Origin: Amoeboaphelidium occidentale
Taxonomy: Eukaryota
Direction of reading: 5' to 3'
Assembly (NCBI GenBank): GCA_023515795.1
Contig: JALGPX010000027.1
Coordinates: 62,001 to 100,070, forward strand
DNA length: 38,070 nucleotides
Under the pieces are notes generated by a model that ran no database searches, was not told where the DNA came from, and worked only from the letters and a program-made list of their open reading frames with translations. Both the position numbers and the translations under genes were made by a program. How positions within the stretch are numbered: the stretch's first letter is position 1; each line of letters begins with the position of its first letter. Shown here in pieces: positions 36,170 through 38,070 of this stretch.

Positions 36170-36330
36170 TTTGATGAGTTTAAGTAATCAGCACTTTTGT
36201 GCTACGTTATTCAGCACTAGACTGAAAAACGCGGAATTCCAACTACTCAACTCGGTATATGTAACAAACGCTATAAAATAGCAATGTACTCCGTAAGACC
36301 CTCCGCAATTAAGCATTGGTTGAGCTACAA
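36170..36330 (-). ncRNA. Candidate Fanzor omegaRNA (scaffold plus flank-derived guide)
   Basis: Directly 3' of the Fanzor stop. Nested stems GCGGAG/TTCCGC, CGG..GTACA.TGCTAT-TTT-ATAGCG..TGTTAC..CCG, an 11-bp hairpin CGTTTTTCAGT-CTAGT-GCTGAATAACG, and AGCAC-AAAA-GTGCT. Boundaries are inferred. Confidence 0.6.
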
Positions 36331-38070
36331 AATTTGTATGATCTTGAGAATTTTTCTGGTCTGACTCCCTTGCATGCATTCACTGAGATGAAAACTTCTC
36401 TGATGTTCACTGCGGCATTGACATCTCTGTTCCAAACGATGTTGCAGTTATCATATCGTTTCACGTGCCACATTCCCCTCTTTGGTAACGGTTCCTTGCA
36501 TTTACAACAAAGCATGCTTGTTCTGAACTCATCAACAAGTCTCATGGGAATCTTCCTCTGTTTCAATGCGTTGATCAAAGAACGTCTAGGAATCGGATGA
36601 TGTCCACGAGAAGTACTACTAAACTGACCGCCACCAAAAGCAACAAACACATTATTGTATGAACGGCTATGTTTAGCATTAGCACCTTTGTGACCAAGAT
36701 AACATTTCCTTTCAGTTTTGCCAATAATTCGATTCACTATTAAATCAAGAGCTTGTTGTCGTTTGATACTTGATCTCTTTCGCAACTGCCTCCATTGCCT
36801 GGAACCATAAAAGTCAAGCCATAAATTCAAATGAGCAAAGAGATAAAAGAAATGATTATGTAGATCCGAAACATGGGATACCTTTGATGTAGGTACATTG
36901 GAATTTGCATTCACAATGTCATTTCGTTTCTTCAACCAATTCTCTCGTTTCTTCTTTGCTGCTGTAATACCCGCCATTTGTCTCCATTCTTTACCAGTAA
37001 CCTGAAACTTCTGTTTACCATCATACGCCATAAACAAGTCTTTTTTGTTTGGATCAATACCAACTGCAGTCCTATCCTTTAAATCCACTGGTGAGTATAC
37101 TTTTGGGTCTTCTATACTATATCCGAATTCATGAATGGTAGATTCTGTTTTCAATATTTGTTTTTTTAAATTAAAATGCAATGAGATCCCATCAGTACTT
37201 ATTGAATAGCTGAAATACCGATTTTTAGGGACAACTTGTTTCAGACGCAGAACCTTTCCCCATTCTTCCTCCGCATTGGCCAAAAACCTCTGAACAGGAC
37301 TGACGTAAATTTTAGGTTGTTGGTGAATATTATTAGATGCGGACTGCAGAGGATCTTTCTTTGAGTTTATATTCAAGTTTCTACTCAACTCGTAGAGCCC
37401 ACTTGTATCAATAGTCACGAAACCGTTTCGAATTTGAGCCAAGGGAACTAAGTTAAATAATTTCAATCCTCTTCCACGCCTCTGTTCCTGGGCTCTACTC
37501 TCACAGTCTTTTGGTCCATATTCTTCAAAATGTCTCAGGATCCCCCACATTAATCCAAAGTATTTATCCCAATTTGTTTTCACAGAGACAGTATTCAAAC
37601 ACAGACCAGCACAATGCGTATGTTGTAGCAGAATTGAATAAACATCGATTAATGCCAAATCTAATTCTTGTTCCAGACCTTTCTTCTTACAAAACTCCAC
37701 TAACTTCTTTTGAAGAGAGGGTCTCTTGCGTTCTTTTTCTGATGGTTCTTCGTATAGTAGACATGACATTAAGTAAGTAGCAGCTGCTTTGCTTCGGGCA
37801 CAGTTTTTGAAAACAGCCGGTAATTGAATCTCCAACAAATGCCTCGCCCATCTGTGTACTCGTCCCCAAAGAGTTGTAGAAACATATACTTGGCAATTTG
37901 TCTGGTACTGCATGACTACTGTGTCGATTGACTTAGATAGTCCTTCGATAGACGGCAAATCGCATTGGCGTATCTTCGCAAGCATCACATACTCTGTTGA
38001 GAACAAGAGTTCCAAGGACAGATCGTAGAGGAGCCACTCAGTAAGAGTTCTCTGTAGATACTGTACATTA
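36186..38070 (-). mobile_element. Putative Fanzor-carrying transposable element (right end only)
   Basis: Fanzor ORF plus structured 3' end. No transposase, left end or TSD visible in the window. Confidence 0.45.
36309..38069 (-). CDS. Fanzor (Fanzor1-like, eukaryotic TnpB-family RNA-guided nuclease), 5' end beyond window
   Basis: ISTDGISL, RuvC-I AVGIDPNKKDL, VAFGGGQF, RuvC-II LVDEFRTSMLCCKC, RuvC-III WNRDVNAAVNI. Intronless; frame stays open from 38015 to the window edge (at least 586 aa). Confidence 0.92.
   Translation of the reverse strand, partial: NVQYLQRTLTEWLLYDLSLELLFSTEYVMLAKIRQCDLPSIEGLSKSIDTVVMQYQTNCQVYVSTTLWGRVHRWARHLLEIQLPAVFKNCARSKAAATYLMSCLLYEEPSEKERKRPSLQKKLVEFCKKKGLEQELDLALIDVYSILLQHTHCAGLCLNTVSVKTNWDKYFGLMWGILRHFEEYGPKDCESRAQEQRRGRGLKLFNLVPLAQIRNGFVTIDTSGLYELSRNLNINSKKDPLQSASNNIHQQPKIYVSPVQRFLANAEEEWGKVLRLKQVVPKNRYFSYSISTDGISLHFNLKKQILKTESTIHEFGYSIEDPKVYSPVDLKDRTAVGIDPNKKDLFMAYDGKQKFQVTGKEWRQMAGITAAKKKRENWLKKRNDIVNANSNVPTSKVSHVSDLHNHFFYLFAHLNLWLDFYGSRQWRQLRKRSSIKRQQALDLIVNRIIGKTERKCYLGHKGANAKHSRSYNNVFVAFGGGQFSSTSRGHHPIPRRSLINALKQRKIPMRLVDEFRTSMLCCKCKEPLPKRGMWHVKRYDNCNIVWNRDVNAAVNIREVFISVNACKGVRPEKFSRSYKFCSSTNA

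What the first reader, a model, noticed from the sequence alone, without database searches (positions are those of the whole stretch)
36309..38070. Fanzor RNA-guided nuclease with all three RuvC catalytic residues in a fungal-relative genome
Seen: an uninterrupted minus-strand ORF with D (GIDP), E (VDEFRTS, next to the Zn-ribbon CCKC) and D (RDVNAAVNI), intronless in an intron-rich neighbourhood. Known: this motif order, with the RuvC-II Glu placed just before the Zn finger, is characteristic of Fanzor1, eukaryotic omegaRNA-guided DNA endonucleases related to TnpB. Inference: a potentially active, likely uncharacterised programmable nuclease with its own TAM.
Basis: partly seen in the sequence, partly recalled or inferred. 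Interest (0 to 1): 0.9.

Follow-up and report, generated by a model that had tools for sequence, protein, structure and literature searches.

The report
Broken, already catalogued aphelid Fanzor1 copy
This is a real copy of a known eukaryotic RNA-guided DNA-cutting transposon gene (Fanzor1), already listed in a 2023 catalogue, but this copy lacks its front end and one zinc-binding residue, so it is likely dead as an enzyme while still carrying a predicted guide RNA.

Summary
The ORF (36309-38069, minus strand) and its D/E/D motifs are real. It is a Fanzor1: a profile of it and its relatives hits SpuFz1 at 4e-59 against 5e-15 for Fanzor2, and the model matches SpuFz1 best (Z 16.9). It is not new: a 558-aa protein matching it in length, shown sequence and coordinates is row FZ1 node357 in Saito 2023's supplement, among 26 Amoeboaphelidium occidentale rows.

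It is probably not active. Homology to close paralogs stops at 37994. The last 76 bases are the end of a different, higher-depth, LTR-like repeat, while the family's main contig runs on in frame. The copy thus lacks about 165-197 N-terminal residues, equivalent to SpuFz1 ~18-110 (first WED strand, REC helices). The third zinc-finger Cys is Tyr.

The right end (36176) closes a predicted stem-loop-plus-long-stem RNA like Fanzor1 omegaRNAs. It lies 62 bases past the stop codon of a convergent Argonaute gene, and another run shows the site empty. Verdict: a decayed member of a multi-copy, recently mobile family; unbroken sister copies, if present, are the ones to test.

The parts
36309..37994 (-). 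Fanzor1 coding remnant (REC from the 4th helix on, rest of WED, RuvC, TNB); first in-frame Met at 37985 gives the 558-aa gene model
37995..38070 (.). 76-nt end of an unrelated, higher-depth repeat, starting TG on the + strand, likely an LTR end, in place of the Fanzor N-terminal coding part; the contig ends inside it
   Evidence: loose ends with other flanks at 37995 in runs X1 and X2; depth 3109 vs 919 in X1; the family contig leaves the window at 37994 and reads EDIALSIH in frame; no match to the paralog N-terminus in any of 6 frames. The LTR label is inference from the TG end.
37188..37199 (-). STDG, the WED-domain TDG motif of Fanzor1
   Evidence: motif defined in PMC10711439 section 28
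37047..37061 (-). RuvC-I GIDPN (catalytic Asp; DPN as in SpuFz1 D383/N385 rather than the common DPG)
36516..36536 (-). RuvC-II VDEFRTS, rearranged Glu, six residues between it and the first zinc-finger Cys
36444..36509 (-). Zinc finger: first pair CCKC intact, second pair YDNC (Cys to Tyr, base 36454)
   Evidence: one search shows the Cys base in all 4 runs laid
36417..36431 (-). RuvC-III NRDVN (catalytic Asp)
36261..36289 (-). Predicted omegaRNA stem-loop 1 (6-bp core 36283-36269, extendable)
   Evidence: pair probabilities 0.76-0.99 in the core; prediction only
36176..36253 (-). Predicted omegaRNA long stem 2, closing exactly at the element's right end (36176)
36161..36175 (-). Flank that would be the ~15-nt guide
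   Evidence: inferred by analogy with SpuFz1; length not tested
33525..36113 (+). Host Argonaute gene, convergent; intron 35946-35981; stop ends at 36113, 62 nt from the element end

Best explanation
This is a copy of a multi-copy Fanzor1 transposon gene family beside an Argonaute gene; it has lost its N-terminal coding part at the edge of a second, likely LTR-type repeat, so it likely makes no working nuclease, while its right end is predicted to still give a guide RNA. Shown: Fanzor1 identity, three catalytic residues, the break at 37994/37995, the Cys-to-Tyr change, the right end at 36176, and an empty site in another run. Taken from known Fanzor1s and untested here: an intact family member binds the right-end RNA (stem-loop 1, long stem, ~15 nt of flank as guide), reads a short TAM beside a matching DNA site and cuts it with the single RuvC site. 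The natural target would be the empty insertion site. Inferred for this copy: with the first WED strand and first REC helices gone, it cannot hold the guide-target junction or the TAM, so it acts at most as a 'ghost-like' guide donor for intact sister proteins.
For: Fanzor1: profile search of PDB gives SpuFz1 3.8e-59, GtFz1 1.1e-46, PpFz1 1.9e-44, ApmFz2 4.6e-15. The model (pLDDT 90.0) matches SpuFz1 at Z 16.9, rmsd 4.1, 451 aligned, and Fanzor2 at Z 10.3. Published class is FZ1. Break: 5 of 5 close paralog queries start matching at 37994; run X1's 530-nt contig (depth 919) follows the window to 37994 and goes on as the paralog sequence in frame; 37995 onward has other flanks in X1 and X2. What is lost: this copy aligns to SpuFz1 from residue 110-113, paralog P0004 from residue 18 (Z 24.2). 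Profile positions 1-110 of 629 are absent. The lost part folds with high confidence in P0004 (most 10-residue blocks 86-98 over residues 71-200). In SpuFz1 that stretch holds H21, T22, K25 and R96, which contact the heteroduplex and TAM; GtFz1 R85A abolishes cleavage. RNA: 36176-36254 folds at -27.7 kcal/mol, z -4.3; its windows rank joint first and third of 562 windows scanned over 33500-38070. Mobility: depth ~870-1118 against 108 on Argonaute in X1; four X1 contigs with other flanks at 36176; an 8.8-kb X2 contig follows the window to 36175 and goes on for ~3 kb with other sequence.
Against: No activity or RNA was measured. I saw no contig or read bridging 37994/37995 among the rows shown (238 rows were cut). 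The assembly has gaps with duplicated edges (5 N runs; repeated peptides), so the 1.8-kb copy could be a mosaic of paralogs. The Tyr variant is shared by 3 of 9 family sequences, so it has been copied and may be tolerated; I found no mutagenesis of this Cys in the three papers searched for 'zinc'. The family's own equivalent of R96 is not evident in the alignment. The RNA's 5' limit was chosen after seeing the fold, a window inside Argonaute folds equally well (z -4.92), Rfam has no match, and I have no covariation data. Depth sums are not copy numbers. The LTR label rests on a TG end and varied flanks only.
Confidence: 0.8

Rival explanations
1. The Argonaute-adjacent copy is whole, and the 5' junction is an assembly mosaic with a different, interrupted copy. 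It would then be a possibly active Fanzor1 with one changed zinc ligand.
For: The family is multi-copy and 78-97% identical in protein; the assembly shows duplicated gap edges; only the first 24 nt of the element are tied to Argonaute by one X1 contig.
Against: The junction falls exactly on the repeat's own end (37995 in two runs), as a true insertion would. The frame from 37994 to the stop is clean and carries many private changes, as one copy would.
Confidence: 0.12
2. The insert is spliced out of the transcript, so the gene is interrupted in DNA but whole in mRNA.
For: On the minus strand the repeat's last bases plus base 37994 form a pyrimidine-rich tract ending in CAG.
Against: It needs a donor and an in-frame join at the unseen other side. 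The one intron seen here is 36 nt. Other family members have no insert, so this is not an ancestral intron.
Confidence: 0.04
3. The shortened 558-aa protein is made from Met 37985 and works as a shorter nuclease or RNA binder.
For: The frame is open for 558 codons, all three catalytic residues are kept, and the model is confident.
Against: It lacks the first WED strand and three REC helices present in all three solved Fanzor1s. A recent break explains the open frame, as the copy is 94.8% identical to a paralog.
Confidence: 0.04

Closest known systems
A. occidentale FZ1 row node357node, Saito et al. 2023 (PMC10432273), supplementary file 3, row 1441
   Same: Same length (558 aa), same shown letters, coordinates equal to the window's plus 62,000, same strand; classed FZ1.
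   Different: The row gives only class, size and sequence. The break, the Tyr change, the right-end RNA and the empty site are not in it.
Spizellomyces punctatus Fanzor1 (SpuFz1; PDB 8gkh, 9ceu-9cez) and Spu-1 elements
   Same: Best sequence and fold match; DPN RuvC-I motif; rearranged Glu; structured right end just after the stop; multi-copy family with partial copies, some hit by Gypsy/Ty3.
   Different: About 21% identity. This copy lacks SpuFz1-equivalent residues ~18-110 and one zinc Cys. The predicted scaffold is ~110 nt against 75 nt. Inverted repeats, left end and TAM were not seen. Family members carry an N-terminal CCHC-like knuckle (below cutoff).
GtFz1 (9cer) and PpFz1 (9cf0/9cf1)
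   Same: Fanzor1 fold, Z 12.8-15.1.
   Different: Third catalytic residue is Asp here (GtFz1 has Asn). No ~100-aa FRI-sized insert is evident from length.
Fanzor2 (ApmFz2, 9b0l) and TnpB/Cas12f
   Same: RuvC plus TNB; Fanzor2 shares the rearranged Glu.
   Different: Much weaker matches (4.6e-15 or worse, C-terminal only; Z 10.3-11.9); they lack the Fanzor1 REC/WED inserts and TDG motif.

Membership tests
Fanzor (Fz1+Fz2) | RuvC-I DP(G) motif | tested here: met
   GIDPN; Asp and Pro conserved in alignment A3. N in place of G as in SpuFz1; 4 of 100 hits with the motif have N, 89 have G (48 of 148 hits had no match).
Fanzor (Fz1+Fz2) | Rearranged RuvC-II Glu about six residues before the zinc finger | tested here: met
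   EFRTSMLC
Fanzor (Fz1+Fz2) | RuvC-III RD after the zinc finger | tested here: met
   NRDVN at 36431-36417
Fanzor (Fz1+Fz2) | C4 zinc finger (Bao and Jurka motif) | tested here: not met
   This copy has YDNC; 6 of 9 close family sequences keep CDNC; 81 of 88 hits with a readable span have a second Cx2-4C pair. Met by the family, not by this copy.
Fanzor1 | TDG motif in WED | tested here: met
   STDG at 37199-37188
Fanzor1 | Fanzor1-type fold with enlarged REC/WED | tested here: met
   Top 7 structure matches are Fanzor1 chains for both models
Fanzor1 | Complete N-terminal WED strand and REC1 helices | tested here: not met
   Absent from this copy, present in paralogs P0003, P0004, P0007, P0010. 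This lowers 'working Fanzor1', not 'derived from Fanzor1'.
Fanzor1 | omegaRNA scaffold at the right end, closed by a stem, followed by a variable guide | tested here: inconclusive
   Predicted fold and independent boundary agree at 36176, and flanks vary; no expression or covariation data
Fanzor1 | Residence in a mobile element | tested here: met
   Multi-copy, varied flanks, empty site in X2. The transposon class could not be determined (left end not held).
Fanzor1 | RNA-guided, TAM-dependent DNA cleavage | not testable with these tools
   Needs RNP purification and a TAM screen
LTR retrotransposon (insert 37995-38070) | TG...CA ends, target-site duplication, paired LTRs, gag/pol | tested here: inconclusive
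   Only one 76-nt end is held; it starts with TG and has varied flanks. The TG...CA rule is recalled, not from a call.

The most novel reading that the evidence does not exclude
The broken copy is a live guide donor: its right-end RNA loads onto intact sister Fanzor1 proteins and directs cutting of the insertion-free allele just behind the host Argonaute stop codon, so a dead passenger spreads or holds its place at an RNA-silencing gene; and the intact family is an untested aphelid Fanzor1 with its own TAM and a ~110-nt scaffold.
Probability: 0.2. Interest if true: 0.55.

Novelty: already known. Interest (0 to 1): 0.17.

Why it matters
As a protein this copy matters little: it is catalogued and likely dead. 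It shows that a kept D-E-D triad in a gene model does not mean a whole Fanzor, since a catalogue row here is a truncated copy. The useful leads are for the family. It appears recently mobile, with filled and empty versions of one site in different runs. That gives a natural system to test what Fanzors do in their hosts, and the empty site should give the TAM. An intact sister copy would be one more candidate compact editor of a known kind.

Tried and rejected
No whole genome is held for this window, so copies could not be counted or ends aligned directly.

Searches for related DNA found nothing usable: metagenome contigs with P0001 (43 pattern matches, 0 confirmed) and P0012 (58 matches, 0 confirmed), viral contigs with P0001 and with the insert's end; alignment A3 was too diverse to search with. 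The letters of the empty site, and so the TAM and any target-site duplication, were not obtained; nor was a contig bridging 37994/37995. No RNA holder was listed, which is no evidence either way. Rfam gave 0 matches at E<=1. Earlier scan notes: none.

Rejected: an ancestral intron at 37994 (the family contig runs on in frame); a reassigned TAA extending the frame (five genes checked end in TAA); a fused transposase (P0014, P0008 and P0010 are repeated Fanzor units, with no transposase family above cutoff in 14 proteins scanned); terminal inverted repeats within 33000-38070 (only short chance pairs). Tandem Fanzor arrays suggested by P0008 and P0010 were not accepted, since this assembly duplicates gap edges. 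No tree was built, as the published class and structure matches already settle Fz1.

Literature: 'Fanzor'+'Amoeboaphelidium' in full texts gave 0 papers; 'Amoeboaphelidium occidentale'+'genome'+'transposable' gave 0; 'Fanzor'+'Argonaute'+'host gene' gave 4 listings, none on such a locus by title or abstract start. The hits were only in supplements.

Full report
Observation. Pfam finds the Cas12f1-like TNB domain (E=1.3e-9). The only two PDB sequence hits of the single protein are PpFz1 and SpuFz1. All named close homologues are Amoeboaphelidium occidentale proteins, so the window is from an aphelid, a sister lineage of fungi (PMC10608142, abstract start only).

Family. A profile from six close sequences plus the query found 970 relatives at E<=0.001. 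A deeper profile of 81 sequences hits SpuFz1 (3.8e-59), GtFz1 (1.1e-46) and PpFz1 (1.9e-44) over most of their length, and Fanzor2 only at the C-terminus (4.6e-15). The AlphaFold2 model of the 558-aa product has mean pLDDT 90.0 and matches SpuFz1 best (Z 16.9, rmsd 4.1, 451 aligned). The Fanzor1 TDG motif is present.

Prior cataloguing. Saito et al. 2023 (PMC10432273; sections 7 and 10, passages, and supplement rows read) list 26 A. occidentale rows. Of these 21 are FZ1, 3 FZ2 and 2 unassigned. Row 1441 (node357node, FZ1) is a 558-aa protein whose shown letters and coordinates match this one. Yoon et al. (PMC10711439, supplement rows) list the paralogs I checked, 5 of 5 accessions. Jiang et al. 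(PMC10530073; passages, 2 supplement files searched) gave no hit. The species name appears only in the tree table of Saito's 9 searchable files; file 2 is a picture PDF that I could not search. I found no sign of bench work on an aphelid Fanzor.

The 5' break. Paralogs have 165-197 more residues before the motif EYVMLAK. All five close paralog queries begin matching the window at 37994, and no frame of 37995-38070 resembles their N-terminus. In run X1 the family contig (530 nt, depth 919) follows the window to 37994 and continues with letters that read EDIALSIH, the paralog sequence, in frame. So there is no ancestral intron here. Bases 37995-38070 have depth 3109 and join other flanks at exactly 37995 in X1 and X2: they are the end of another repeat. 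It begins with TG, as LTRs do (recalled), and Gypsy/Ty3 insertions into Fanzor genes are reported in S. punctatus. The contig ends inside this repeat (100,070 nt; offset 62,000), so extending it will not give the start. The missing coding part may lie beyond the insert on another contig.

What is lost. The model of paralog P0004 aligns to SpuFz1 from residue 18 (Z 24.2); this copy aligns only from 110-113. The lost stretch is a strand and three helices predicted with high confidence, profile positions 1-110 of 629. In SpuFz1 it holds H21, T22 and K25 at the guide-target junction and R96 at the TAM. The like Arg in GtFz1 is essential (PMC11423790, part 1 of Results and passages read). I could not point to the family's own Arg in that loop. 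A second defect is the zinc-finger Cys-to-Tyr change at 36454. All four runs laid show the Cys base, but 3 of 9 family sequences share the Tyr, so its effect is open.

Right end and RNA. Four X1 contigs leave the window at 36176 and one X4 contig at 36175, with different flanks. The minus-strand RNA 36253-36176 folds into a long branched stem whose last pair is 36253-36176. It is preceded by a short stem-loop with a 6-bp core (36283-36269). This is the order in SpuFz1: stem 1, linker, stem 2, 15-nt guide. z is -4.3 for the chosen stretch. In an unbiased scan its windows rank joint first and third of 562, tied with one window in Argonaute. This is prediction only: Rfam has no match and I have no covariation or expression data.

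Site and mobility. The right end lies 62 nt past the stop of a convergent Argonaute gene. An X4 contig that lacks the 36-nt intron, and so looks like RNA, reaches 36161, so the insertion is in or at the edge of the 3' UTR. An 8,764-nt X2 contig matches 35000-36175 with 12 differences and then runs ~3 kb on other sequence: an empty site. X1 depth is ~870-1118 on the ORF against 108 on Argonaute; the tool warns that this is no copy number. X1 may be the window's own source and is not independent. Thirteen named A. occidentale records belong to the family, and none is a clean full-length gene model. X1's main contigs show no net frameshift in the parts covered, so intact copies are likely but not shown.

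Mechanism. For the family, by homology to SpuFz1 and untested: protein binds the right-end RNA, uses the flank as guide, reads a TAM and cuts the empty site. For this copy: likely no nuclease, possibly a guide donor like the Spu-1 ghost loci, whose RNAs work with SpuFz1. The position beside Argonaute is most simply chance in a gene-dense genome; every Fanzor guide is its own flank.

Limits. No whole genome, left end, TAM, junction-spanning read or RNA data were available. The assembly duplicates sequence at gap edges, so a mosaic copy is possible (about 12%). Papers were read as stated above; PMC3627910 was read in parts 2-3 of Results and PMC11832414 in passages.

Verdict. Real Fanzor1, already catalogued, likely dead in this copy. 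Interest 0.17.

Noticed in passing
window 33525-36113 (+): Complete-looking Argonaute (N, L1, PAZ, L2, Mid, Piwi) with a 36-nt intron at 35946-35981. Second Argonaute-like contigs lay on 35133-35366 in all four runs, so there is at least one paralog.
   Followed up: partly
proteins P0008 (1479 aa), P0010 (927 aa), P0014 (1366 aa): Gene models made of two or three head-to-tail partial Fanzor units; either tandem arrays or assembly duplications.
   Followed up: partly
PMC10432273 supplementary file 3; PMC10711439 supplementary tables: A. occidentale holds an unusually varied Fanzor set: 26 rows (21 FZ1, 3 FZ2, 2 unassigned) in one catalogue and 84 name hits in the other, in several families.
   Followed up: no
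window 3912-3930, 6486, 6770-6778, 16971, 27917-27937: N runs, several with duplicated coding sequence at their edges (for example in the frames at 3150-5315, 5285-6867 and 14258-17898): scaffolding artefacts.
   Followed up: partly
proteins P0003, P0004, P0007, P0010 N-termini: Family members begin with an acidic, low-confidence tail and a Cys/His knuckle (weak zf-CCHC_6 hits below cutoff), absent from this copy.
   Followed up: no
window 23869-26676 (-): Two similar multi-pass membrane protein genes in tandem; not scanned.
   Followed up: no
window 13442-17898 (+): A WD-repeat-like, transmembrane, kinase-like frame with a receptor-kinase layout, by eye from the translation; not scanned.
   Followed up: no
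window 34028-34107 (-): An 80-nt stretch antisense to Argonaute folds as strongly as the element's right end (z -4.92); probably chance.
   Followed up: no
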